From a virus, in the IMG/VR virus record IMGVR_UViG_3300020122_000503, positions 1 to 64,000 of that record: a DNA stretch of 64,000 nt; one strand, written 5' to 3'. The stretch's first letter is position 1, and every line of letters begins with the position of its first letter. Below are positions 28,482 through 61,484 of the stretch, one piece after another. Under the pieces are notes generated by a model. It worked only from the letters and a program-made list of their open reading frames with translations. It was not told the DNA's origin and did not search any database. The position numbers were made by a program, and so were the translations under genes.

Positions 28482-29672
28482 ATGCCCGGTATCATCGGTT
28501 TTGGGAGAAAAGCGCGCGAGACGTATCCTACCGTTGCGGGCAGATCCGGAACCGGACCGACGGGGCCTTCTGGAACCACAGGCCCCACGGGACCTACCGG
28601 CGTAGCGGGCTCTGCCACTAACACTGGCGCAAGCGGCGCGACTGGGCACACAGGATCAAGCGGACCGACGGGAGCAACGGGCCTTCCCGGATCATCGACG
28701 AACACAGGAGGCACAGGACCGACTGGCAGAACCGGCTCAACAGGACCAACCGGCGCAGCAAGTAACGTCACGGGCCCCACAGGACCCAGCGGATCGACAG
28801 GCTCTAGCGGACCGACGGGACCCGCGGGCGCAGCAAGCACTGTTACGGGCCCCACGGGCGTTGGATCAACAGGAGCCACCGGACCGACAGGAGCGGCGGG
28901 AGTCGCAGGAACAGCAGGCACGGCGAGCACGGGCTCAACGGGATCGACAGGCCCGACAGGAGTCCCTGGATCCGCAACGAACACAGGCGCAACGGGAGAT
29001 ACCGGACCAACCGGTGGACAAGGCCAAATAGGACCCACCGGAAGAACAGGACCGACGGGACCTACAGGACCGACCGGGCTCTCGGGAGCTGCAACGAACA
29101 CCGGAGCAACGGGATCCACTGGACCCACCGGCATCATCGGTCTGACCGGACCAACCGGCTTGTCGGGTTCTGCAACCAACACAGGATCTACCGGAGGCAC
29201 GGGGCCTACAGGACCAACCGGCTTGACAGGCGCTGCTTCCAACACAGGATCCACCGGAGGAACCGGACCCACAGGACCTACAGGTCTTACTGGATCAGCT
29301 TCGAACACCGGCGCTACCGGACCAACGGGTCCGAACCCGTTCGCCACGTTCGTCAGATCAAACAAGAACATGGTGGCGAGCGTCACCGTGCTCGACAACG
29401 ATCTCGCGTGCATCACACCTGTAGCGACAACGCCTACCATCTCTAGCGCGACAGGCGGTTACGTGGGAGTCGATCGAAACGGCGTCGCTCAAATCGTCGG
29501 TGATGGTACCAAGGTGAACGTCTACTGCTACTTCTCCGGTGATGGTGGAGTAACGCCGAGAGCGATGCCTGACATCGTCGCGGGCGATCTCCTCTACTGG
29601 AACGGCAGCATCGCGGGCTCTCAGCTCACGGTGACCGATCGCCTGAACTTCAACTACAACGTCACGACGTAA
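28482..29672 (+). CDS. collagen-like (Gly-X-Thr) fibre protein
   Basis: Long GPT/GAT/GST triplets with SATN interruptions; globular C-domain. Confidence 0.85.
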
Positions 29673-29684
29673 GAGAAAAAGAAC

Positions 29685-30860
29685 ATGGCCGACGGACTAG
29701 TCAAAGTCGCGCAAATGGAGCCGGGTGACACCGGCGACGTCCTCGTGTCAGGTGGCGGTGCCGCAGAATGGCAACCCGGAGTCAACGTCGCTCCTATCGT
29801 CTTCGGTGCAGGCGCGGACGGAGCTCTCGCCGCTGGCTTCGGCGCAATAGTTCTCACTCGAAACACTTACTACTCAAACGTCACTTTCCAAGCCGGCGAT
29901 TCGATCAACACGGCCGGTTTCTATCTCGGCATCTCTGGCGTGCTCGACGCTTCCGCGGCCGGCATGGGCGCGACTGACGGCATCTTCTGTCTTGCAGGAA
30001 ATGGCGGAGCGGGCGCCGCCGCGACTACAGGCGGAACTGGCGGCGCTATCAACAACAACGCCGGCCAAACAATGAGCGGCGGTATCGCCGGATCGGCTGG
30101 AGGCACCGGCACCACCACAAACGGAAATCAAGGCGGCGCTGCTTCGAACACCGGTAACTCTGGCGGTGGAGGTGGCGGCACAAGCGGCAAGGGCGGCAAC
30201 GGTTTGTCGGGCACAGGAGGCGCCACTCGAGCAGGAGGTACGGCAACTGGCGCAGGCGGCACGAACGTCTACGCCATGCCCATAGGCGCGCTCTACGCCG
30301 GTGTTGGTGCTGCTAACGCCATGATCGCAACCATCGGCGGTGCGGCAGGAGCCGGCGGTGGTGGTGGCGCGGGTGACGGGACCGCAGGCCCTGGCGGAGG
30401 TGGCGGCGGCACAGGAGGAGGCACAGCAATCGTAGCCGCTAGAGAGTTTCGACGAAGCGCCTCCACGCCTGCCAATTTCATCAGATGCCCAGGTGGTAAC
30501 GGAGGCGTCGGCGGCACCCCTGCCGGAGGTCAACGAGGTGGTGGCGGCGGAGGATCAGGCGGTGGCGGCGGCGTGCTTGTCTTCATCGCGGGCACCGTCA
30601 CCGGAAGCGGCGCAGCAACGAACGTTCTAAGCGCCAACGGCGGCAGCGGCGGTAACGGCGGAGATGGCACTGGCGCTGCCGGCATCGGCGGCAACGGCGG
30701 CAACGGCGGAACTTCCGGCCAATGCATTTACTACAACATGCAGACAGGCTTCTTCGCCGCACAAGGCCCAAAGAACAATCCGGCAAGCGGACCCACCAAT
30801 GGATCCGGCAACACCCACGGTACAGGTGGGCCCGGAGGCCTCGCCCAAATCACGGTGTGA
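29685..30860 (+). CDS. glycine-rich fibre/adhesin protein
   Basis: FGAGADGAL...LTRNTYYSNVT and poly-Gly loops; paralogous to the C-half of 31757..33754. Confidence 0.75.
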   Translation: MADGLVKVAQMEPGDTGDVLVSGGGAAEWQPGVNVAPIVFGAGADGALAAGFGAIVLTRNTYYSNVTFQAGDSINTAGFYLGISGVLDASAAGMGATDGIFCLAGNGGAGAAATTGGTGGAINNNAGQTMSGGIAGSAGGTGTTTNGNQGGAASNTGNSGGGGGGTSGKGGNGLSGTGGATRAGGTATGAGGTNVYAMPIGALYAGVGAANAMIATIGGAAGAGGGGGAGDGTAGPGGGGGGTGGGTAIVAAREFRRSASTPANFIRCPGGNGGVGGTPAGGQRGGGGGGSGGGGGVLVFIAGTVTGSGAATNVLSANGGSGGNGGDGTGAAGIGGNGGNGGTSGQCIYYNMQTGFFAAQGPKNNPASGPTNGSGNTHGTGGPGGLAQITV

Positions 30861-30863
30861 GGC

Positions 30864-31760
30864 ATGCAGGTAGGCCCCTTCCCTTGGCTAGGCACGCCGA
30901 CCGTACCCCCCTTGAAGGGTTGCGTAATTCAGACGTTCCCAGGGCCTTACACCGTGGGCGCGCAAACGTTCACGCCTCCGGAGCTTTCAGATCCCGTGTC
31001 GGCCACCTCCATGGCGGCTCTCGGCGCCGCGTGGTTTCTAAATTACCTGCCGAGCTCGTCGATACGAACGACCATCCCGTTCGTTCCGATGATTTTCTCT
31101 CCTTCTTACAAGAGCGCTCAGAACCTTCTAGTCGCTTCCAGATACAAAGTCATTCTCGGGTACAACGAACCGGACAACGGACCGCCTCAAGCGAACACGA
31201 CGGTCGCCCAGGCCTTATCCGACTGGGCGGACTTCGAAGCCGCAGCCGACGCTATTCCGGGTTGTCGATTGGGCGCTCCTGTGATGGCGGTCAACTCCGA
31301 CACACCGGGCAGTTGGCGTTACGATTTCATGAACGGAATCGTTCCGGCAACCGGTAAGCCTCCGAGAGTGGATTTCGTACCCATCCACTTCTACACAAAT
31401 CAATTCACTAACCCTGCTGCTTCCGCGGCAACGCTCCGAAGCATCATCGTTCAAGTCCACGCGGCTTACCAAAAACCTGTGTGGATAACAGAGCTCGGTG
31501 CGACCAAGTTCACCGGATCCGTACCGACTCAGGAGTATCCGACTAGCACTGCCGAGACTTCTGCGATCATACAAGCCTTCATGACCACCATACTTGCCGC
31601 TAATCTCGTCGTTGAACGAGTGTCGTGGTATCCGTACGTGGTCCCCGCCGGCTTTCCTCCGGGAGGCGCAGGGAACGTTGCAAACGTCGGTCTCGCTGAT
31701 CTCACGGGAGCTCTCACGGCACCCGGCATCACCTTTAGAGATTCAGGTAACGTCGGATGA
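30864..31760 (+). CDS. GH-A clan glycoside hydrolase (Glyco_hydro_cc/GH128-like)
   Basis: [35 protein letters not shown]. Confidence 0.8.
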
Positions 31761-33754
31761 TCGGAAACATTTGTGGAGGCTCAACCGGACCGACAGGCCC
31801 TTCTAGTGGTCTGACGGGACCAACGGGCCCAAGCGGCTCCACAGGACCTACCGGGACCCCCGGTAGCGCCGTCAACACCGGAACCACGGGATCGACAGGA
31901 CCCACCGGAATAGCGGGGCCTACAGGATCGACAGGACCTACCGGAATAACAGGGCCCACAGGATCGACAGGGCCCACGGGAATAACGGGACCTACGGGCT
32001 TATCAGGCGGCTCGACGGGCACAGGCGCTACAGGGCCAACCGGTCCTTCCGGAGGCCCTATTGGTCCTACTGGACCGACCGGTAACACAGGCCCAACAGG
32101 AGCAGACGGAGCCCCGTCAACAGTAACAGGACCGACAGGCAACACGGGATCGACTGGACCAACAGGAGCAGCAAGCACTGTCACAGGTCCAACAGGATCA
32201 ACGGGCAACACCGGAGCAACCGGCAACACCGGATCAGTCGGAGCGACGGGAGCACAAGGGCCAACCGGCAACACAGGAAGCACCGGATCGACGGGACCAA
32301 CCGGATCAGTCGGATCGACCGGTAACACCGGATCGACAGGCAACACAGGATCGACGGGGCCAACTGGATCAGTCGGGCCGACTGGCAGCACTAGCAGCAC
32401 AGGCAACACCGGATCAACAGGTAACACTGGCCCGACCGGCAACACCGGAGCCGCGGGCGCGCAAGGTCCAACGGGATCAACAGGAAACACAGGCAGCACC
32501 GGATCGACGGGCAACACAGGGCCCACCGGATCCACCGGAAACACCGGATCGACCGGACCAACTGGAAACACCGGATCGACGGGCAACACCGGTAGCACCG
32601 GATCAACCGGGCCGACCGGACCAACCGGATCAACTGGAAGCAGCGTCACAGGCCCGACCGGGTCTTCGAGCCTCGCCGAAAACGCGATGGTGTTTGCGCT
32701 CTTCGGTGACGGATCAGACGGCGGTCTCACAGCGTCGAGCGGTACGACAACGCTCACGAAAGACACGAACTACTCGTCGATCACGCTTTCCGGCACAGCC
32801 AAAATCGATTGTGCGGGCTATGTGCTCCGATGCTCCGGCACGTGCGATCTCACGAACATGCCCGCTGGAACAATTTTTCGTTCCGTGGTCGCAGGAGGAA
32901 ACGGCGCCGCGGGCGGTGGCGCAGGAAGCGCAGGTACGATCACAGGCAACACCGCCGGCACGACGATCGGCGCGACTGCCACTGCGGGAACTGCTGGCGG
33001 CGCGGGAGGTACCGCAGGCGGCTCACAAGCCGCAGCGCCCAGCGCCACATCGTACTCATCAGGCGGCTCAACCGCGACAAGCGGCGCGGGCGGTTCCGGA
33101 AATAACGGCGCCAACGCAGGCGGTCTAACTCGTGCCGGCATCACCGTCACTCGCGTAGGCGCATCGCTGATCCATTCGTTGCTGTTTGCCTCAGCCTTTT
33201 CAGCGTCCGGGTACATCACTGCGACAGGCTCTGCTAACGAGTTCTACGGCGGAGCAGGCGGCCCCGGAGGCGGCGGCGGAGGTGGCGACGGCTCTGCCGG
33301 AGGCGGAGGCGGAGGCGGAGGCGCGGGAGCGCTCGGAATTTATTTTGCAGCACGAACTTTGGTAGTTACCGGCGCCGCTGCTGGAGTCATTCAAGCTAAA
33401 GGTGGCGCTGGCGGTAACGGCGGCACCCCTGCTGCCGGCAACAGAGGCGGCGGTGGCGGTGGCAGCGGTGGCGGTGGCGGTTTCGTGTGTTGCATCTTTG
33501 GAACGGTTACGGGAACCGTCACCGGAGGCGTGTCGACCGACGGCGGCGACGGCGGCAACGGTGGAAACGCAACAGGCAACGGAGTCGGCGGCAACGGCGG
33601 CGGCGGAGCTGCCGGCGGTCACGTCTACGTCGCGAACCTAAGCGCAAACACTCAATCAACCGCAACGGGAACTACAGGTACTGCGGGCGGTGCGGCATCC
33701 GGAACCACCGGAGGCACCGGTCAAACAGGCGAACAGATCCGAGTGAATCTGTAG
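31757..33754 (+). CDS. collagen-like plus glycine-rich fibre protein
   Basis: About 300 aa of GPT/GST/GNT triplets, then FGDGSDG and a Gly-rich domain. Confidence 0.85.
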
Positions 33755-53377: not shown

Positions 53378-55768
53378 TCACCACGAGATGCGGCCGACGA
53401 ACCACGGGGTGCCGCCCCCTTGCTTGGGTTTGTGGTCGAACCGTCGCCCCCCGACGTTCTTCTTTCGGTACTTCCGGAGCTGCATGCTGACGAGCTTCGT
53501 CGTGAGCTTGTCGGGCGTGCATTCGCAGAGCTCAGCGAGCGCTTCTTTGAGTGCGGCGTGGGCGAACGCCCCGACGTGCATCTCTGAGAGCACGTCGGAA
53601 ACGAGCATGGGTTTGCCGAGTTTCTCCCATTCGATGAGCACGCGCTCTAGAACCCCCAGCTCCGAGTCGCCGCTCTCGACGAGCTCTTTGCGGCCCTCGA
53701 TCGGATCCGGCATGCCCGCCCACACGAGCGCGCCCCTCACGATTCGGCTCCATTGCTCGAAGGAGCCCCACGACGTCAGATTTTGGTTGGGACAACCTGC
53801 GGCGAAGTATCCGCGAAGCACGGTGAGGACGGCGCTCGCGAGCTTCGGTCGTTCGCGGTGTACGTGTGGAAGGATCGGATCGTATTTGAAACCGGTTCGA
53901 TGCTCGGGGTGCTCGAGTGTGGTCTCTAGTTGAACGTGAAGCGCGCGACCGACGAGCTCGTTCGACAAGATGAGGTTTTGCGCTGTCACGAGCCAGAGTG
54001 CTCGCATCGGCATCGCCACCATTTCGCTGACTCCGAGTCGGCGTTCTAGAACGGCCATGCTCGTGATTACGCCTGCTAGCGCTGAAGAATCGAGAGCTCC
54101 TTCGACGTTGTCGAGAAGGACGATAGGGTCGCCGCTGATTGCGAGCGACAAGATCCGTTTTCGCATCTCTTCTTCGTTCGTTTTCGCCGTTCTAGGAAGA
54201 GATCTACCGGAATAAATTTCTCCGATGATGTCTGCGAGATAGGTTGCTCCGACTCGGCGCGCGTTCTTGTCGAGAACACCGAACGGCACGCAGCCGTCGA
54301 TTGTCGGGCGAGCGAACGGTGTAAAGAGCAAAGCCATCCACGCGGAGAAGTGTTCCGAGCTCACAAATGGAAAATCTTGAACGACGTCGTACAAAGTCGC
54401 GATGGCCGTCGTCGCGTCGTCCAAAGTAGGATTGGACGGGATTGGTGGAAAGTTGACGTTCGGTTCGTAGAAAAGTCCCGTCGTGCGATCGTAGCCGGGT
54501 GTGTCGAGCACTGTTCCGTCTGGACGAAGCACCGGGCACTCGGTGATGCCTTCCAAAAACTTGACCCCGGGCCATTCTCCGCGGCAATGAAGCTCCGAGA
54601 GAGGATCGTCCGGAACCCCGCACGAGACTAAAGAGGAATCACCGGTGCTCGTCGTTTTCCAACGCTGAAACGCGCAAGCGTGCGAGATGAGCCCTCTGGT
54701 TCTCGCTTTCGACATCTCGGAGATGATTGGAGCGTTTGCTTCTCGGCGGATCTCGTCCTCTTCTTTGCTCTTATTGGGGTCGCGAAGGATCTGCACGAGC
54801 TTCCAGCCTCTGTTGAACACGTTCGGCAAAGCCGCAAGCGCCGGGAGCATCTGATCTGCGACTTCGAGCTCGTCGAAGCCGACGATGACGGCTACGCGGT
54901 CGCCCGTCGGTTCTTTTCTGGCCGGGAGCCATTTGCGAGCGCGTGTGATGAGCTTCTTCCCGCCGACGCCGCCCCCGAGCGGCCGATCGGCGATGAGTTC
55001 GATGACGCGGTTCCAGCCGGTGACAGGTTCGCCCGAGTCGAGCTTTTCTTTCGTTCCACGAACGGTCGCGGCGCGTTTCTGGGCGGCGTCCGAGCCACCA
55101 ACCCATGCCACGAGAAGAACGAATAGCTCGGTGTGTTCGACGGGCCATCCGTCTCGAAGAAGTCCGCCCCCGAGCGCGAGGCAGAAGTCGTGACGTCCTT
55201 TTTTGGGGAAGTACCGAGCAAGAAGACACGCCGCTGCGAGTACGCCAACGGCGGCTTCTAAGACGGTTCGTTCGATGCGCGGGATCTGCTCGGGGTTGGC
55301 GCCGTCTTCGAAGTCGATGAATTCGCCGCTGACGTGGTGGCTTCCAGGGAACACGGTCTGAACGCCGCCCGTCCGGAGCTCGACGATCGTTTTGCCGGCG
55401 CCGTCGATGTTCGGATCTTCGTACTTGATGTGCTTCGGGACGTCAGAGAAATAGAGCCAGTGCGACGCGCGCTTCGATGCGCGTCCGAACCGCCCCGGTG
55501 TTGGCGGTAAAAGATGCGGTGCGAGGTAGAGCGCTTCGGGACAATCGATGTCGACGTCGCAAAGGCCTTTCGATGGTTCGCCGAGAATGATCCCGATGTT
55601 TTGAGGGACGCCGTTGAAGTAGTGCGGCGCGGTCTCGTGCGTGATCCGTAGGTTCTTCCAGTCCGGGATCGTCGGTCCTTTTTCTCGATACGGAACGGGG
55701 ATTGGGCACAGCCCTAGGTTGATGTAGTCGATCGCGAGATCGAAAACCGAGGGCGGTGATGACGACAC
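53378..55768 (-). CDS. bifunctional primase-polymerase fused to a helicase-like domain
   Basis: GLCPIPV..KGP..W, NIGIILG, DVDID, HWLYF; C-terminal LLDNV Walker B with a degenerate Walker A. Confidence 0.8.
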   Translation of the reverse strand: MSSSPPSVFDLAIDYINLGLCPIPVPYREKGPTIPDWKNLRITHETAPHYFNGVPQNIGIILGEPSKGLCDVDIDCPEALYLAPHLLPPTPGRFGRASKRASHWLYFSDVPKHIKYEDPNIDGAGKTIVELRTGGVQTVFPGSHHVSGEFIDFEDGANPEQIPRIERTVLEAAVGVLAAACLLARYFPKKGRHDFCLALGGGLLRDGWPVEHTELFVLLVAWVGGSDAAQKRAATVRGTKEKLDSGEPVTGWNRVIELIADRPLGGGVGGKKLITRARKWLPARKEPTGDRVAVIVGFDELEVADQMLPALAALPNVFNRGWKLVQILRDPNKSKEEDEIRREANAPIISEMSKARTRGLISHACAFQRWKTTSTGDSSLVSCGVPDDPLSELHCRGEWPGVKFLEGITECPVLRPDGTVLDTPGYDRTTGLFYEPNVNFPPIPSNPTLDDATTAIATLYDVVQDFPFVSSEHFSAWMALLFTPFARPTIDGCVPFGVLDKNARRVGATYLADIIGEIYSGRSLPRTAKTNEEEMRKRILSLAISGDPIVLLDNVEGALDSSALAGVITSMAVLERRLGVSEMVAMPMRALWLVTAQNLILSNELVGRALHVQLETTLEHPEHRTGFKYDPILPHVHRERPKLASAVLTVLRGYFAAGCPNQNLTSWGSFEQWSRIVRGALVWAGMPDPIEGRKELVESGDSELGVLERVLIEWEKLGKPMLVSDVLSEMHVGAFAHAALKEALAELCECTPDKLTTKLVSMQLRKYRKKNVGGRRFDHKPKQGGGTPWFVGRISW

Positions 55769-55911: not shown

Positions 55912-56094
55912 ATGGCCCGAGAAAAAGAAACCGACGTCATGGTTGCCACGCGAGTGAGCAAGTCGCTCTACGTCAAGATCTTGAAACGCCAACGGGAGTT
56001 GAAGAAGCTCACCGGCATCGAACCCAGCGTTAGTGCCGTCTTACGCGCGATGATTGCAGAAGCGGCGTCTGGTCGTCGTCATCAGGCGGCGTGA
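55912..56094 (+). CDS. small RHH-like regulator
   Basis: VATRVSKSLY...SVSAVLRAMI. Confidence 0.6.
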   Translation: MAREKETDVMVATRVSKSLYVKILKRQRELKKLTGIEPSVSAVLRAMIAEAASGRRHQAA

Positions 56095-56546
56095 ACGTGA
56101 AGCGAAAAAGTATTTACTTTATTCAACGAGGCGTCGACGGACCAATCAAAATAGGAGTCGCTGCCGATCCTTATGAACGTCTTTCGTCACTTCAGACAGC
56201 TTCTCCGGAGAAGTTGATTTTGCTTGGGTGTGTTCGTGGTTCCGAGACCGGTATGCATCAAAAATTTCGAAAGCACCGCATTTCTGGAGAGTGGTTCAAG
56301 CCGCACAAAGACGTTCTTCGATTTGTCCGTTTGCGTACTTTTGTGCCATCGCGCCGACGTGCTGGCACAATAATCAAGGTTCTGGTTCCGGATCATCTTC
56401 AGGATCCTATTGAACAAGAACGCAAACGTATGAGTTTTGCGAGAGAAAAAGAAACTAAGGCGAGTGCGGTCGTCCGAGCGTGTCTCGAGGAGTGCCTGCT
56501 CGGTAAACCCCGGCCTGTTCTCTCTGTCTCTAGAGAAAAAACTTGA
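56091..56546 (+). CDS. GIY-YIG (T5orf172/MUG113-like) protein with RHH-like tail
   Basis: IYFIQ, IKIGV, RLSSLQTASP, HQKF, GEWF. Confidence 0.8.
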   Translation: MNVKRKSIYFIQRGVDGPIKIGVAADPYERLSSLQTASPEKLILLGCVRGSETGMHQKFRKHRISGEWFKPHKDVLRFVRLRTFVPSRRRAGTIIKVLVPDHLQDPIEQERKRMSFAREKETKASAVVRACLEECLLGKPRPVLSVSREKT

Positions 56547-56579: not shown

Positions 56580-58040
56580 ATGGGTGCGCTCTTCGTTTCG
56601 GCGTCCGAGATTGAGCTGTACGACCTGTGCCCCAGGAAATGGGCGTTTGCATATTTAGAAGGGCTGCGCCCGCCTCCGAACGAGTCCGCTGCTCTCGGCA
56701 CGCGCGTGCACAAGATTCTAGAGCAGTGGCTCAAGGACGGAACGGCTCCTGACCTACTAACGAACGAAGGCGAGATCGCTGCGAGCGGTCTTCATCTTCT
56801 GCCGCCGCCTCGGACGCCGACGCTTGTTACTGAGGAGCAGTTCAGCTTCACCTCTAGAAGGGCTTGGTATTCGGGATACAAAGATTTTCGATACCGCGAC
56901 GCAAACGGGCTCCTACACGTGGGGGATCACAAAACTACAAAATCTGCCACTTGGATGAAGACGACGGACGAGATTCTGGCTCACCCCCAAGCTTTGATCT
57001 ACAGCGTCGATGAGTTCTTTCGAAACCCGCAGGACGATCGTCTGTCGCTCGATTGGATCTACTATAAGACGACCGGCTCACGAAAAGCCGAACCTCGTTT
57101 TCAGATCGTGACCAAGCAAACGGTCGCTGAGATGTTTTTCGAGCACGTCGATCCAGTCGCCGGGCAGATCACGGCGCTCCACGACACGCCGCCTGGCACG
57201 TCCGCGCTCGAGTTCCCTCCCGACTTCCGAGCCTGTGAGGCTTTCGGAGGTTGCGCGTTCCTTTCGATTTGTAACCCAACCCCAACCCAGAGAATTCAAG
57301 CAACCATGACCCAAGCCGGACTTTCCCTCACTGACAAACTTAAGGCGATGAAGAACAACCGAGCTCCGAGCCCGATCCATCCCCCGGAGGCGTTTCAGGC
57401 GCCGGCCCCGGCGGTGGCAGCTCAGATGCCTCAGATGCCCGCAATGGCGCCTCAGGCTTCGCCGATGCAATTCACCCTTCCGACGCCTCAGGGCGCGCCC
57501 GTGGCGCCGCAGGCGGTCGTGCCGGTGCAGCAACAGTTCTATCCTCCTGTCGAGGCTCAGGCGGCGCCACAGGTGCCCTTTCAGCCTGTGGCAGGGCCAG
57601 GGATGGCTCCTCAGGTGCCTTTCCAACCTGTGCCCCAACCCCCGCCCGCACCGGCAGCCACGCCCGAGCCCCCGGCCGCTCCCAAGAAGGCGCGAGGACG
57701 CCCTAAGGGTTCGACGGCCGAGGCCGCCTTGAGCAACGGCGGTTTCATACTCTACGTCGGCTGCGCACCGATCGGTTGCAACGTGACGAACGCTCTCGAG
57801 TACGTGAACGCTGCGCACGATCAGTTGAGAGCAGCGCGTGGTGTTACTCACTACCGGGAAATGGAATTCGGCAAAGGACCGGGCGAGCTCTGTGCGGCGC
57901 TCGAGGCGCTCCTCGCGCTCTGTGAAGGAACGCCGAACGCGCCCACGGGTGACGTCGTGCTCGGCGGCGCGCAGATCGAGGAAGACACGGCGTCGGTTTG
58001 GTTCTCGAAGGCGGCAAAAATCGTGAGAGCGTTTCGATGA
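56580..58040 (+). CDS. PD-(D/E)XK (RecB/Cas4-like) exonuclease with Pro/Gln linker
   Basis: SASEI..Y..CPRKW, GTRVH, GYKD, DHKTT, QALIY, C...C...C cluster. Confidence 0.8.
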   Translation: MGALFVSASEIELYDLCPRKWAFAYLEGLRPPPNESAALGTRVHKILEQWLKDGTAPDLLTNEGEIAASGLHLLPPPRTPTLVTEEQFSFTSRRAWYSGYKDFRYRDANGLLHVGDHKTTKSATWMKTTDEILAHPQALIYSVDEFFRNPQDDRLSLDWIYYKTTGSRKAEPRFQIVTKQTVAEMFFEHVDPVAGQITALHDTPPGTSALEFPPDFRACEAFGGCAFLSICNPTPTQRIQATMTQAGLSLTDKLKAMKNNRAPSPIHPPEAFQAPAPAVAAQMPQMPAMAPQASPMQFTLPTPQGAPVAPQAVVPVQQQFYPPVEAQAAPQVPFQPVAGPGMAPQVPFQPVPQPPPAPAATPEPPAAPKKARGRPKGSTAEAALSNGGFILYVGCAPIGCNVTNALEYVNAAHDQLRAARGVTHYREMEFGKGPGELCAALEALLALCEGTPNAPTGDVVLGGAQIEEDTASVWFSKAAKIVRAFR

Positions 58041-58106: not shown

Positions 58107-58760
58107 ATGGGAAAAGTAGCTTTAAAACCAGCGGAGACCACGAAGGTTCCCGCGCTGATCGAAGTTCCGGATATCGAAACGCAGATCGTACCCTTTTACT
58201 TGAAGGGGTTGAGCCCACTCTTGGTCAACAACTTCAGCGAGAAGAGCAAGGCTCAGCTCGAAGGGGAGAGCACTGGCAAAATCAACAAGGGAAAACTTGG
58301 TGCCAAAGGAAAGCCTCCTCGCGATCCGGAAGCGGAGTTTCAAGCTGCTCGCGTCTTAAACGACGATGGCCGCGATTGCATCCCGGCGCGGTGGATTAAG
58401 CAAGCATTGGTCACTGCCGCCGGCATGTCCGACGTCAACATCGATCAGAAGGTCGTGCAGCGTACATTGTTCGTTCGAGGGGACTTGATCCCCATCGAAT
58501 GCAAAAAGGGTCCGAGGATGCGTACCGACTGGGTACGACGAGGCCGGTGGAACGCAAAGGTGCCGATGCAGTGCTACCGAGCGGAGTTCGTCGACTGGTC
58601 GATCAAGATTCAGATCGAGTTCGAACCTAAGCTCATTTCGCATGCTTGGTTGGTTTTCTTGGTGCGCCGCGCTGGGCTCTCGGTTGGGCTCTGTGAGTGG
58701 CGTCCCGAGAAGAAAGGCGAGATGGGCCGGTTCGACATTGTGATGTCTCCGGCGAAGTAA
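58107..58760 (+). CDS. stand-alone RAMP/Cas7-like RNA-binding protein
   Basis: LKGLSPLLVN (first strand), IPARWIKQAL (RAMP IPxxxxKGxxR-like), C-terminal Gly-rich loop AGLSVGLCEWRPEKKGEMGRF. Confidence 0.7.
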   Translation: MGKVALKPAETTKVPALIEVPDIETQIVPFYLKGLSPLLVNNFSEKSKAQLEGESTGKINKGKLGAKGKPPRDPEAEFQAARVLNDDGRDCIPARWIKQALVTAAGMSDVNIDQKVVQRTLFVRGDLIPIECKKGPRMRTDWVRRGRWNAKVPMQCYRAEFVDWSIKIQIEFEPKLISHAWLVFLVRRAGLSVGLCEWRPEKKGEMGRFDIVMSPAK

Positions 58761-58764
58761 ACGA

Positions 58765-59120
58765 GCAGTAGCCGATGCGAGCTGAGACGACATCGAGACG
58801 AGCCGATGCGACTAGATGCGAAACGAATCGCGGTAGTCGACCTGAGCCGAGCCGAGAGGCGACGACCCGAGACGAATCGACACGAGACGAACCGCAGTAA
58901 CCGATTCGACCCGAGCCGAACTGATGCGAGCCGACACGACTGGACTCGAGGCGAAACGAGTCGCAGTAACCGAATCGAGCCGAGCTGATGCGAGCTGAGG
59001 TGAGCCGATCTGAACCGAAGCGAGAGGCAGTAACCGATACGAGGCGACTCGAACCGAGCCGACACGAACCGATTCGACTCGATACGATTCGAACGGCAGT
59101 ACACGAACCGAGCCGCAGGA
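58765..59120 (+). ncRNA. pentamer-coded repeat array (five units plus one partial); candidate guide-RNA precursor
   Basis: GCRGTA at 58765, 58830, 58894, 58963, 59027, 59096; 57 NN+triplet pentamers (47 CGA, 7 TGA, 3 other). Confidence 0.75.
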
Positions 59121-59126
59121 GAAAAA

Positions 59127-59693
59127 ATGACAGCAACCGCGCCGACTGTACGCGAATTTGTGATCGGAAACCGCGACGGTTTTCGTGGCGTCAATAAAAA
59201 AGACGTCGCGCCTTTCGTGGCGGTTCTGTCTGACATCGCCAAAAAGATAGGACCGCCAGGAGAGATCCCTGCTTTCGAATGGCGCAAAGAGCTTCTGGCT
59301 AGAGCTAAACCTAAAGACAGCCCGATACACAACAAGTTCACGTGGGACGACAACATCGCGGGGGAGAAGTATCGCCATCACCAGGCGGCTTACTACATTC
59401 GCGCTTTCGACTTTCAGTACGTGGACGAGCGTGGGAAAGCCGCCAAGAAGGTTCGGTGGCTCCAAACGATCAAACTAGTGAAATCAGACGGGCAAGCGCA
59501 GCAAAGAGCGCCGATGACCATGCCGGACGTGCTCTCGGACGAGCGCGCTCTTGAAAACGTAGTCGAAACAGCATTGGGCGAAATGCAGTCTTGGGTTCGT
59601 AGATACGAAGCTTTGGAAAGCGTCGCCAAGCTCGCGCCGATCTTCCGCGCCGCAAGGAAAGTGCTGGCTAAGACTGTTGTGCTAAAAAAGTAA
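59127..59693 (+). CDS. conserved phage protein; putative accessory of the RAMP/array locus
   Basis: SPIHNKFTWDDNIAGEKYRHHQAAYYIR; its RBS is formed by the last array delimiter. Confidence 0.65.
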   Translation: MTATAPTVREFVIGNRDGFRGVNKKDVAPFVAVLSDIAKKIGPPGEIPAFEWRKELLARAKPKDSPIHNKFTWDDNIAGEKYRHHQAAYYIRAFDFQYVDERGKAAKKVRWLQTIKLVKSDGQAQQRAPMTMPDVLSDERALENVVETALGEMQSWVRRYEALESVAKLAPIFRAARKVLAKTVVLKK

Positions 59694-59699
59694 AAATTC

Positions 59700-61484
59700 G
59701 TGTCTGACCCCATCGACCTCTCCAACATCTTCGCCGCCGTTGCCGAAGCAACCAACGGCGCGAGGCGAGGCACCGCTCTCGGTAAGATCCGAGAAGCCGA
59801 AGGCGTGCGGCACACGCCCGAGCTCGACAGGATCATCATGATCCCACGGCGCGTGCCGCTCACGCCCGACGAGGAAGCGGAACGGATCGATCTGCTCACG
59901 AACCATCTCCGCACGCCGGGCGGAACGATGCGGCTCCGCTCGGTGCAGGCCCAAGCTCTCTGCGAGATGCACGACTACCAAGGGCTCTTCGGACCGATTC
60001 GAGTCTCCGGTGGGAAGACCCTCATCTCCTTGCTAGCGCCGCTCGTACTCGAATCTCCACGGCCGATGCTTATCACCCCAGCGGCGCTCATCGAAAAAAC
60101 AAGAACCGAAGCTAGGAAGTACGCTCAGCACTGGCAGCTCCCGCCGCTCCTTCACATGGCGAGCTACCAGGCTCTCGGTCGCGTCTCCGGCGCGGAGACG
60201 CTAGAGAAGGCGAACCCTGACCTCATCATCTGTGACGAGGCGCACAAGCTCAAGAACAAGCGCGCCGCCGTCACGAAGCGCGTCGCGAGGTACATGCACG
60301 ACCACCCAGAGACGCGCATGGTCATCTTGACCGGCACGATTTCGAAGCGAAGCTTGCACGACTTCGCGCACCTCTTGCTCTGGTCCTTGAAGCTCCGGAC
60401 GCCGCTTCCACGACACTGGACCGAGCTAGAGGCGTGGGCGCTTGCGATCGACGAGCGACCGAACGCGATCGTTCCGCCTCTTCACCCAGGGGCGATCTTG
60501 ATGCTTGCGACCGAGGAAGACACCGGTGACGTGACGCAACGCGCTCGCATCGCCGTTCGTAGGCGGATCAACGACACGCCTGGTGTCGTGACGGCTTCGG
60601 GTGAGGGTTGCAACGTCAGCCTTCGTGTTCAAGGTCATGTTGTCGAAACGACGGAAGTGACGACCGCTGCGTTCGAAAGACTCCGTGATCGGTGGGAAAC
60701 GCCCGACGGCTGGCCCTTGAGCGACGGGTTTGCGATCTGGCGTCACGCTCGCGAGCTCGCGCTCGGTTTCTTCTACAGATGGGAGATTCGACCGCCTGAC
60801 GAGTGGCTCGAAGCGAAGAAGGCATGGTCCGCGTTCTGTCGCAAGATCCTGAAGACTAATCAACGCCGGCTCGACTCCGAGATGCAGGTCGCACTCGCGT
60901 GCAAGGACCATCCCGAGTGGTATGGCGACCAGGAATACAAGGCGTGGGTCGCGATTCGGGATTCGTTCAAGCCGAAGACCGTCGCGGTGCCGTTCGACGA
61001 CTCCGTTCTCGAGTACGTGACGAAGTGGGCCGAGAAGCACGGTGGTCTCGTTTGGTGTGAGCACATTGACTTCGCTGAGCGTTTGTCGGCGAACACGGGG
61101 CTACCTTACTTTGCGGGCGAGGGCTTAGACGCGAATGGAAATTCGGTTGAGAGCTTCGACGGCACGTGCGCTATTCTTTCGATCGAGGCAAACCGAGAGG
61201 GGCGGAACCTGCAACGCTTCTCGCATAGCCTCGTTGCCTCGCCGATGCAGCAGGGTGACCGGTGGCAGCAGCTTCTCGCGCGTACGCACCGCGACGGGCA
61301 AGAGGCGGATGAAGTGATCTGTGATGTCGTGATTTCGTGTGCCGAACACGTAGACGCGATGCGCATCATACAGAGCGACGCCCAGTACCAAGAGGACATC
61401 ACCGGGGACCGGCAGAAACTTCAGCTCGCGGACATCATTGTCCCGAACACGATGCACTTGAAAGGAGCGGTTTGGAACAGATGA
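59700..61484 (+). CDS. superfamily 2 helicase
   Basis: LRSVQ, SGGKT, ICDEAH, LTGT, EGRNLQ, QLLARTHRDGQ. Confidence 0.85.
   Translation: MSDPIDLSNIFAAVAEATNGARRGTALGKIREAEGVRHTPELDRIIMIPRRVPLTPDEEAERIDLLTNHLRTPGGTMRLRSVQAQALCEMHDYQGLFGPIRVSGGKTLISLLAPLVLESPRPMLITPAALIEKTRTEARKYAQHWQLPPLLHMASYQALGRVSGAETLEKANPDLIICDEAHKLKNKRAAVTKRVARYMHDHPETRMVILTGTISKRSLHDFAHLLLWSLKLRTPLPRHWTELEAWALAIDERPNAIVPPLHPGAILMLATEEDTGDVTQRARIAVRRRINDTPGVVTASGEGCNVSLRVQGHVVETTEVTTAAFERLRDRWETPDGWPLSDGFAIWRHARELALGFFYRWEIRPPDEWLEAKKAWSAFCRKILKTNQRRLDSEMQVALACKDHPEWYGDQEYKAWVAIRDSFKPKTVAVPFDDSVLEYVTKWAEKHGGLVWCEHIDFAERLSANTGLPYFAGEGLDANGNSVESFDGTCAILSIEANREGRNLQRFSHSLVASPMQQGDRWQQLLARTHRDGQEADEVICDVVISCAEHVDAMRIIQSDAQYQEDITGDRQKLQLADIIVPNTMHLKGAVWNR

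What the first reader, a model, noticed from the sequence alone, without database searches (positions are those of the whole stretch)
58107..59693. Minimal viral RNA-guided system candidate: lone RAMP/Cas7-like gene, pentamer-coded array and accessory gene
Seen: a 217 aa ORF with RAMP-type hallmarks (LKGLSPLLVN, IPARWIKQAL, C-terminal Gly-rich loop ending GEMGRF). Its stop is followed 4 nt later by a 356-nt array of five 64-69 nt units, then a 188 aa gene whose AGGAG RBS is part of the last delimiter, so the three parts are probably one transcript. No cas1, cas2, cas3, cas5, cas6 or classical CRISPR is recognisable in the window. Known: Cas7-family RAMPs polymerise on guide RNA with a fixed nucleotide period. 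Inference: each unit is a guide RNA, one subunit binds per pentamer through the fixed (C/U)GA, and the variable NN pairs read a target. The likely role is silencing or blocking rival phages or host genes without a nuclease. From memory, and unverified, this resembles recently reported phage VIPR-type loci with GGY-NN repeats; the fixed triplet here is different.
Basis: partly seen in the sequence, partly recalled or inferred. Interest (0 to 1): 0.97.

Follow-up and report, generated by a model that had tools for sequence, protein, structure and literature searches.

The report
Phage VIPR system with CGA-NN guides
A soil phage carries a small CRISPR-like RNA-guided DNA-silencing system of the recently described VIPR kind, unusual in that its guide RNAs are built from (C/T)GA-NN five-base units instead of the published GG-pyrimidine-NN units.

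Summary
Window 58107-59693 is a VIPR system (Viral Interference Programmable Repeat; bioRxiv 10.64898/2026.04.26.720920). It lies in a 73.5-kb, about 96% complete uncultivated soil phage.

- **Protein:** the 217-aa protein is a Vipr homologue. A profile of it and 34 relatives hits the solved SUSP1 Vipr protein (E 3.2e-13). Its predicted fold matches Csm3/Cas7.
- **Array:** it is the only 5-nt-periodic stretch in the window. It has five units of 64-69 nt, each with 11-13 pentamers.
- **Partner gene:** a relative of the 188-aa gene sits beside vipr on the same strand in 106 of 121 related loci, and is fused to Vipr in one protein.

What differs is the fixed triplet: C47/T7/A1/G1-G-A in 56 pentamers, instead of GGY. 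More distant relatives use GGY and the sister clade uses GGA. All share a 4-nt "CAG" insertion that separates the units.

The kind is known, non-canonical repeats are already reported in print, and this scan has met VIPR loci before on other DNA, including a GGA variant. I therefore class it as a new variant of a known kind. Targets, transcription and the cause of the changed triplet remain untested or unresolved.

The parts
58107..58760 (+). vipr gene, 217 aa: a minimal RAMP/Cas7-like protein, homologue of SUSP1 Vipr
   Evidence: ORF. phmmer hit to PDB 36pp_D 'SUSP1 Vipr protein', E 6.6e-4; profile A1, E 3.2e-13 over 146 residues. phrog_4652, E 5.5e-18. AlphaFold2 model pLDDT 85.5, pTM 0.78. 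Foldseek top hits are Csm3/Cas7 chains, best E 6.5e-6, TM 0.42-0.50 among the top ten rows; 71 chains at E <= 0.001.
58765..59121 (+). vrRNA array: five guide units plus a remnant, made of NN-(C/T)GA pentamers
   Evidence: Lag-5 identity 0.52, the only such place in the window. 17 forward, 0 reverse and 0 control matches to six consecutive YGA-NN units. No Rfam family. Folding z-score -1.11, so no notable structure.
58765..58829 (+). unit 1 (65 nt): GCAGTA, then 11 pentamers with a 1-nt insertion after the fourth, then ATC
   Evidence: One soil-metagenome contig (run X6) lacks 11 nt at 58784 and 5 nt at 58810.
58830..58893 (+). unit 2 (64 nt): GCGGTA, then about 11 pentamers with one irregular 10-nt stretch
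58894..58962 (+). unit 3 (69 nt): GCAGTA, then 12 regular pentamers, then GTC
58963..59026 (+). unit 4 (64 nt): GCAGTA, then 11 regular pentamers, then GAG
59027..59095 (+). unit 5 (69 nt): GCAGTA, then 12 regular pentamers, then ACG
   Evidence: One contig (run X12) has C>T at 59048, a variable NN position.
59096..59121 (+). remnant: GCAGTA, two pentamers, then a delimiter-like GCAGGAG that holds the AGGAG ribosome-binding site of the next gene
59127..59693 (+). vipr-accessory gene (vap-like), 188 aa, phrog_15946, fold and function unknown
   Evidence: phrog_15946, E 7.5e-13. A relative lies next to vipr on the same strand in 106 of 121 related loci. Residues 17-142 of the 364-aa protein P0034 match it (E 4e-14) and are followed by a Vipr domain. 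No Pfam, NCBIfam or PDB sequence match.

Best explanation
This is a phage-borne VIPR system with three parts: vipr (58107-58760), a contiguous array of five vrRNA units (58765-59121) and a conserved accessory gene (59127-59693). They are probably transcribed together on the + strand.

Inferred by analogy with the solved SUSP1 system:
- Vipr protomers polymerise along each guide, one per pentamer.
- Neighbouring protomers clamp and flip out the fixed triplet, which here is (C/U)GA instead of GGY.
- The 11-13 exposed NN dinucleotides pair with double-stranded DNA, skipping one target base between pairs. The bound filament blocks transcription of a competing mobile element or phage.

The 4-nt insertion that turns one pentamer into NNCG-CAGU-A marks unit boundaries. 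It is the likely site where the array is cut into 64-69-nt guides, or where filaments end.

Shown here: homology of the protein, its RAMP-like fold, the array grammar, and conservation of the three-part locus and of the punctuation in relatives.

Inferred only: transcription, processing, binding of YGA by this protein, the 1-nt skip rule and the target class.
For: Protein:
- A single-sequence search hits only one relevant solved chain, SUSP1 Vipr (E 6.6e-4). A profile of 35 sequences raises this to E 3.2e-13 over 146 residues, including the G-loop GxxEWRP...GRF. The same match is reproduced against the SUSP1 genome record.
- The AlphaFold2 model (pLDDT 85.5) matches Csm3/Cas7 subunits of type III and VII complexes.

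Array:
- It is unique in the window, strand-specific and above controls.

Relatives:
- 31 of 34 IMG/VR loci and 68 of 83 metagenome or genome loci that encode a relative have a 5-nt-periodic stretch by my criterion, on the gene's strand.
- Their fixed triplets are GGC or GGT in distant relatives and GGA in the sister clade.
- The accessory gene is adjacent in 106 of 121 loci and fused to Vipr in P0034.
- Unit punctuation is shared: NNCG-CAGT-A here, NNGG-CAGT-A in GGA arrays, NNGGC-AGGY in GGY arrays.

Context and published mechanism:
- The record is an IMG/VR virus record of 73,506 bases, about 96% complete.
- Mechanism and function come from the papers' results sections.
- No self-target: the best match is 6-7 of 11-12 NN, no better than guides with shuffled NN order. 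The paper reports the same for its systems.
Against: - No RNA evidence exists for this locus.
- The name-giving GGY motif is not met. In SUSP1, changes to the GGY motif, one of which was GGY>GGA, abolished silencing. This protein must therefore read a different triplet, and that is untested.
- No convincing target was found in five exact-seed scans of IMG/VR.
- The apparent link between the A-ending triplet and protein residues N41 and W96 rests on only about 3 changes on the tree, so it has no statistical weight.
- The arrays of the closest homologues (50-83% identical) could not be seen. The window is therefore the only YGA array I observed.
Confidence: 0.9

Rival explanations
1. A decaying or orphaned array: the protein still reads GGA or GGY, and the CGA array has drifted and no longer loads.
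For: The window is the only YGA array seen. Sister-clade arrays are 80-100% G at that position, and two loci are mixed (L047 G7/C7, L141 G30/C15). Units 1 and 2 contain irregular stretches.
Against: - The change is uniform, not random: 54 of 56 pentamers have C or T at position 1, and G and A follow at the next two positions by the way the runs were picked.
- Unit lengths and punctuation are kept.
- The vipr and vap reading frames are intact.
- Near-identical copies were laid from all four soil-metagenome runs tested.
Confidence: 0.05
2. A DNA-level element such as iterons or a replication origin. It would sit in the replication module between a PD-(D/E)XK nuclease and an SNF2-type helicase and be bound as DNA by the 188-aa protein.
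For: The locus lies among replication genes. The accessory protein has no known fold.
Against: - The neighbouring gene is a Vipr homologue, and equivalent arrays are transcribed, Vipr-bound RNAs in SUSP1.
- The repeats are strongly strand-asymmetric.
- Homologues of the nuclease and the helicase occur in 0 of the 121 related loci, so the array travels with vipr and vap, not with replication genes.
Confidence: 0.03
3. The array is read from the - strand as TCR-NN units, or it encodes one of the long - strand ORFs that overlap it.
For: Three - strand ORFs of 167-248 aa overlap the array.
Against: - These ORFs match no PHROG family, and a 5-nt period does not fit a codon structure.
- In relatives the arrays read GGY or GGA on the vipr strand.
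- The flanking genes are on the + strand with gaps of only 4-5 nt, and the last delimiter holds the ribosome-binding site of the next + strand gene.
Confidence: 0.02

Closest known systems
Type II VIPR system of Escherichia phage SUSP1 (Vipr + vap1 + vrRNA1-4). Papers: bioRxiv 10.64898/2026.04.26.720920 and 10.64898/2026.04.26.720927. Structure: PDB 36pp.
   Same: - A homologous small RAMP protein that keeps the G-loop W-R and the thumb arginine: window E197-W198-R199 and R158 align with SUSP1 D177-W178-R179 and R138.
- Guides built from pentamers with three fixed and two variable bases, 11-13 per guide against 9-16 published.
- A two-gene locus in a phage, with no cas genes.
   Different: - The fixed triplet is YGA, not GGY.
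- There is no roughly 40-nt structured 3' tail. Units abut and are separated only by a 4-nt insertion.
- The accessory gene is unrelated to vap1: the vap profile does not hit it.
- The array lies between vipr and vap, not outside them.
VIPR 'staggered' arrays and other VIPR types with a 'related consensus' (NNNGG, YNNNG, NNNNG), same paper, methods text and legends of figs S17-S18
   Same: Contiguous arrays in which the end of one vrRNA is the start of the next. Read in the paper's register, the window's unit is A-NN-Y-G, which fits the loose class NNNNG.
   Different: I could not see the figures or data files, so I cannot say which of the seven types this is, or whether a YGA logo is among them. 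The shared CAG punctuation is my own observation and may or may not be what the paper draws.
Non-canonical VIPR-like clusters in bioRxiv 10.64898/2026.10.21.760802 (21 clusters; named examples GAC/NN, CAC/NN, WGT/NN, TGH/NN)
   Same: Vipr-like fold next to 5-nt arrays whose fixed triplet is not GGY. The TGA pentamers here (7 of 56) would fit TGH/NN.
   Different: CGA/NN or YGA/NN is not named in that main text. The full list is in a figure I cannot see.
Cas7-family backbone subunits (Csm3, Cmr4/6, type VII Cas7) of class 1 CRISPR effectors
   Same: Same fold class by Foldseek. In class 1 CRISPR complexes too, RAMP thumb domains break the guide-target pairing at a fixed period.
   Different: The period is 5 nt with three bases flipped out, against 6 nt with one. 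There is no CRISPR array, Cas1/Cas2 or large and small subunits. The published target is double-stranded DNA, read with gaps.

Membership tests
VIPR system | Vipr protein homologous to the reference Vipr proteins | tested here: met
   Profile of 35 sequences against PDB: SUSP1 Vipr (36pp_D), E 3.2e-13, 146 residues aligned. Single sequence, E 6.6e-4. Reproduced against the SUSP1 genome record.
VIPR system | RAMP architecture: RRM core, glycine-rich loop, thumb | tested here: met
   Model pLDDT 85.5. Foldseek finds 71 PDB chains at E <= 0.001, and all rows shown are Csm/Cmr/Cas7-type chains. The G-loop motif is conserved, with invariant G190, G194, W198, R199, G204, G207 and F209 in 35 sequences. 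The thumb was not examined in three dimensions.
VIPR system | Adjacent tandem pentanucleotide repeats with three fixed and two hypervariable bases, 9-16 per vrRNA | tested here: met
   11-13 pentamers per unit in five units. Strand-specific and above controls.
VIPR system | Fixed triplet is GGY (YNNGG repeat) | tested here: not met
   The triplet is C47/T7/A1/G1 - G - A in 56 pentamers. The paper allows 'a related consensus' and lists NNNGG, YNNNG and NNNNG, so this does not exclude membership. It makes the locus a variant.
VIPR system | Minimal locus (vipr plus a vap gene), no cas genes or CRISPR array, mostly in viruses | tested here: met
   vap-like gene adjacent in 106 of 121 related loci. 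No Cas1 or Cas2 in the record. No CRISPR-like repeat. The record is a virus record, about 96% complete. cas3, cas5 and cas6 were not tested separately.
VIPR system | vrRNAs are expressed and co-purify with Vipr | not testable with these tools
   No RNA run is listed among the 24 runs that hold the stretch.
VIPR system | NN dinucleotides read double-stranded DNA with a 1-nt skip; natural targets in competing mobile elements | tested here: inconclusive
   No self-target. Five exact-seed scans of IMG/VR gave only chance-level hits. The best is unit 4 against L251/L252, with 10 of 11 regular NN at the start of an ssb gene, and it is not significant.
Type II VIPR (SUSP1 / P. fulva clade) | vap1 accessory gene and a structured 3' tail (pseudoknot) after each repeat tract | tested here: not met
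   The vap profile does not hit SUSP1 vap1. Units abut with only a 4-nt insertion. The array folds no better than shuffles, z -1.11.
CRISPR-Cas class 1 | CRISPR repeat-spacer array, adaptation genes and a multi-subunit effector | tested here: not met
   Only one RAMP gene lies in the locus.

The most novel reading that the evidence does not exclude
The (C/U)GA triplet is a re-keyed handle. Under this reading the lineage moved GGY > GGA > YGA, with changes in the Vipr pockets that hold base 1 (SUSP1 H17 > N41) and base 3 (SUSP1 M72 > W96). The result is a protein that loads only its own guides.

The force driving this would be the conflict shown for SUSP1, in which satellites and rival phages carry solo vrRNAs that hijack another element's Vipr. 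A changed handle would escape such hijacking. It would also give a natural orthogonal Vipr-guide pair for multiplexed use.
Probability: 0.3. Interest if true: 0.6.

Novelty: new variant of a known kind. Interest (0 to 1): 0.42.

Why it matters
VIPR is a months-old class of RNA-guided DNA recognition, and only GGY-type systems have been studied at the bench. Here two of the three fixed bases differ, the relatives show intermediate states (GGA, then mixed G/C), and the published structure names the contact residues that differ. That makes the locus a ready test case for how Vipr recognises its handle and whether handles can be made orthogonal.

The shared CAG punctuation across GGY, GGA and YGA arrays points to a common signal for unit boundaries in tail-less arrays, which could be tested by small-RNA sequencing.

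It changes nothing about the principle: the kind, its mechanism and the existence of non-canonical repeats are already in print.

Tried and rejected
- **Closest homologues:** The only member of the window's 18-row subclade that I hold, L035, ends inside the accessory gene.
- **Pattern scans of IMG/VR for other YGA arrays:** A pattern with the GCAGTA delimiter gave 4 stretches, none with an array or a Vipr gene.
- **Targets:**
  - The own genome and 241 held loci (1.71 Mb) gave nothing above guides with shuffled NN order. The one 9-of-12 score is L246, which had been fetched with that very pattern.
  - Exact seeds of nine NN under the 1-nt skip rule gave: unit 3, one hit each for two seeds, with 0 of 3 and 0 of 4 flanking NN matched; unit 5, none for two seeds; unit 4, two loci with one identical sequence, with 10 of 11 regular NN matched.
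  - That last site spans the start codon of an ssb gene, with the skipped base at codon position 1, not the wobble position.
  - By my rough estimate, one extra matching NN among about ten flanking positions tested has a chance near one half, so I do not count it. Exact seeds find few targets that have mismatches, so absence of a hit means little.
- **Accessory protein:** no family, solved relative or informative fold. The wide structure search aligned only the C-terminal helices, best Z 6.3. The protein atlas gave only unnamed viral clusters.
- **Vipr-vap complex prediction:** no verdict.
- **RNA evidence:** no RNA holder is listed among the 24 runs.
- **Covariation:** W at the SUSP1-M72 column occurs in 9 of 14 arrays whose triplet ends in A and in 1 of 38 GGY arrays. 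N at the H17 column occurs in 10 of 14 and 2 of 38. The tree needs only 3 changes of motif and gives 1-3 independent pairs, so no test is possible. The tree is a quick search with SH-aLRT support only and has several long branches.
- **Neighbouring genes:** I rejected the helicase (59700-61484) and the nuclease (56580-58040) as parts of the system, because no homologue lies in any of the 121 related loci.
- **Limits of what I could read:** supplementary files and figures of the four VIPR papers were closed or not held. These would show the type assignment, the per-type logos and the list of non-canonical motifs, so my statement that YGA/NN is not named covers main texts only. One search found the word 'vrRNA' in four of its 20 listed papers.
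Full report
**What is there.** The window is part of an IMG/VR virus record of 73,506 bases, judged about 96% complete. On the + strand a 217-aa ORF (58107-58760) ends 4 nt before a non-coding stretch that runs to the ATG of a 188-aa ORF (59127-59693). The stretch is cut by GCAGTA (once GCGGTA) at 58765, 58830, 58894, 58963, 59027 and 59096. This gives units of 65, 64, 69, 64 and 69 nt and a short remnant. The remnant's last, delimiter-like GCAGGAG supplies the AGGAG ribosome-binding site of the next gene.

Each unit parses into 11-13 pentamers of two variable bases followed by (C/T)GA. In 56 pentamers taken from runs of four or more, the first fixed base is C 47, T 7, A 1, G 1.

**Is it more than chance?**
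- Lag-5 identity is 0.52 in the array. Across the window the mean is 0.25 (sd 0.05), and no other part of the window exceeds the mean by 4 sd.
- Six consecutive YGA-NN units occur 17 times forward, never on the reverse strand and never for the backwards control in the whole record.
- The RNA has no notable structure (z -1.11) and matches no Rfam family.
- The three long - strand ORFs over the array match no PHROG family.

**The protein.** Pfam and NCBIfam give nothing. PHROGs gives phrog_4652, of unknown function. Against all solved chains, the single sequence finds one relevant match, 'SUSP1 Vipr protein' (36pp_D, E 6.6e-4). A profile of the protein and 34 relatives raises this to E 3.2e-13 over 146 residues, and I reproduced the match on the SUSP1 genome record. 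The AlphaFold2 model (pLDDT 85.5, pTM 0.78) matches Csm3/Cas7-type subunits of type III and type VII CRISPR complexes (best E 6.5e-6, TM near 0.5, 71 chains at E <= 0.001).

**What is known.** VIPR systems were described in 2026. I read the results, discussion and two methods sections of 10.64898/2026.04.26.720920 and two results sections of 10.64898/2026.04.26.720927. For 10.64898/2026.10.15.759431 I read the abstract, outline and passages, and for 10.64898/2026.10.21.760802 passages only.
- A small RAMP protein, Vipr, polymerises on a vrRNA made of 9-16 pentamers with fixed GGY and variable NN.
- Two adjacent protomers hold each GGY, and the NN pairs read double-stranded DNA while skipping one target base.
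- Binding silences transcription, and natural targets are satellites, prophages and other VIPR loci.
- Seven types are defined, with six kinds of accessory gene. Array layouts include tailed, 'staggered' contiguous and ribozyme-separated forms. Alternative repeats NNNGG, YNNNG and NNNNG are mentioned.
- The fourth paper reports 21 clusters with non-canonical triplets and names GAC, CAC, WGT and TGH as examples.

**Relatives.** Scans with the protein alignment gave 34 loci from IMG/VR, 80 (the best of 189) from metagenomes and 3 from genomes.
- By a lag-5 criterion, 31 of the 34 and 68 of the other 83 have a periodic stretch close to the gene on its strand. Many of the rest are short contigs.
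- The recurring triplet is GGC or GGT in relatives of about 27-37% identity and GGA in those of about 39-48%.
- Two loci are mixed at the first fixed base (L047 G7/C7, L141 G30/C15), while GGA arrays are 80-100% G there.
- On a quick tree of 127 Vipr sequences rooted on SUSP1, the window falls in a 45-row clade (SH-aLRT 95). One half (27 rows) holds every sister locus with a visible array, and all of those are GGA. The other half (18 rows) holds the window and homologues whose DNA I could not obtain.
- The order GGY, then GGA, then YGA is therefore plausible, but it rests on one observed YGA array.

**Punctuation.** The delimiter is best read as one pentamer with four inserted bases: NNCG-CAGT-A. 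GGA arrays have NNGG-CAGT-A every 8-13 pentamers, and GGY arrays of the same protein family have NNGGC-AGGY. So the unit boundaries are real and shared across the family. This looks like the contiguous 'staggered' layout mentioned in the first paper, but I could not see that figure.

**The accessory gene.**
- A relative of the 188-aa protein lies next to vipr on the same strand in 106 of 121 loci. It usually sits between vipr and the array, sometimes after the array as here.
- In P0034, residues 17-142 match it (E 4e-14) and a Vipr domain follows.
- It is not related to SUSP1 vap1, so this is not a type II system.
- No family, solved relative or informative fold was found.
- Homologues of the flanking nuclease and helicase occur in none of the 121 loci, so those genes belong to the phage's replication module, not to the system.

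**How the changed triplet might be read.** In SUSP1:
- G1 is contacted by H17 and D177.
- G2 is contacted by R138 and W178.
- The pyrimidine sits in a narrow pocket formed by E71, M72, C173, T175 and R179.

The window keeps R158, W198 and R199 and has E197 for D177. It has N41 for H17 and R95-W96 for E71-M72. Among 52 distinct sequences with a readable array, W at the M72 column occurs in 9 of 14 arrays ending in A and in 1 of 38 GGY arrays. N at the H17 column occurs in 10 of 14 and 2 of 38. These counts reflect about three changes on the tree and cannot be tested, so they are a lead only. Perturbing the GGY motif in SUSP1 abolished silencing, and GGY>GGA was among the substitutions tested. 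This makes it likely that the protein here has a changed pocket rather than a tolerant one.

**Targets and expression.**
- None of the guides matches the phage's own genome better than controls with shuffled NN order.
- Five exact-seed scans of IMG/VR under the 1-nt skip rule gave three distinct sequences, all compatible with chance. The best is unit 4 against two identical loci, with 10 of 11 regular NN over the start codon of an ssb gene.
- 24 soil-metagenome DNA runs from 24 studies hold the stretch or a part of it (21 of them half of its words or more), and none is RNA.
- Contigs of four of these runs are mostly identical to the window. One has an 11-nt and a 5-nt deletion inside unit 1, and one has a C>T at a variable position of unit 5, each seen in a single low-depth contig.

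**Verdict.** The kind is known, non-canonical repeats are already reported, and this scan has noted VIPR loci on other DNA, including a GGA variant. Four things are specific here:
- the (C/T)GA triplet, which none of the four main texts names;
- its place next to a GGA clade;
- the family-wide CAG punctuation;
- the candidate contact residues.

Noticed in passing
L121:10560-11535: A Vipr relative (E 2.5e-23) is followed on its own strand by an array whose recurring triplet is GTC (38 counts). The G-loop column pattern reads A-G-R where others have E-W-R. This may be the 'GAC/NN' class of the October 2026 preprint read on the other strand.
   Followed up: partly
L186:3051-3965: A weak Vipr relative on the - strand (3846 to 3253, E 5.1e-9) is flanked on both sides by 5-nt arrays that read GAG on the + strand, so CTC-NN on the gene's strand. 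This would be another non-canonical triplet.
   Followed up: no
proteins P0001 and P0037 (no DNA held): A Vipr 99% identical to the window's and an accessory protein only 64% identical are both listed with a longest contig of 1,768 bases. If they share that contig, the array and accessory half of the locus has been exchanged between near-identical phages.
   Followed up: no
L251:5466-5491 and L252:4192-4217: The start of an ssb gene in another viral contig matches 10 of the 11 regular NN of guide unit 4 under the 1-nt skip rule. By my estimate this is not above chance.
   Followed up: partly
window 29030-33481: Several tandem repeats of period 9, 18, 27, 36, 45 and 63, rich in GGA/CCN, lie inside long ORFs. 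They look like collagen-like Gly-X-Y repeats of fibre proteins.
   Followed up: no
window 56091-56546 and 53378-55768: Upstream of the locus lie a 151-aa ORF and, on the - strand, a 796-aa ORF that looks like a primase-type replication protein. With the PD-(D/E)XK nuclease (56580-58040) and the SNF2-type helicase (59700-61484), this places the VIPR locus inside the replication module.
   Followed up: partly
phage records H1-H30: Cultured Gordonia phages (ODay, Ecliptus, UmaThurman, Pipp) and many Mycobacterium phages (Saal, Donkeykong and others) encode relatives of this Vipr at 30-34% identity, annotated as hypothetical. The Gordonia ones also have a relative of the accessory gene. They could serve as bench models for this Vipr and accessory-gene family.
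   Followed up: no
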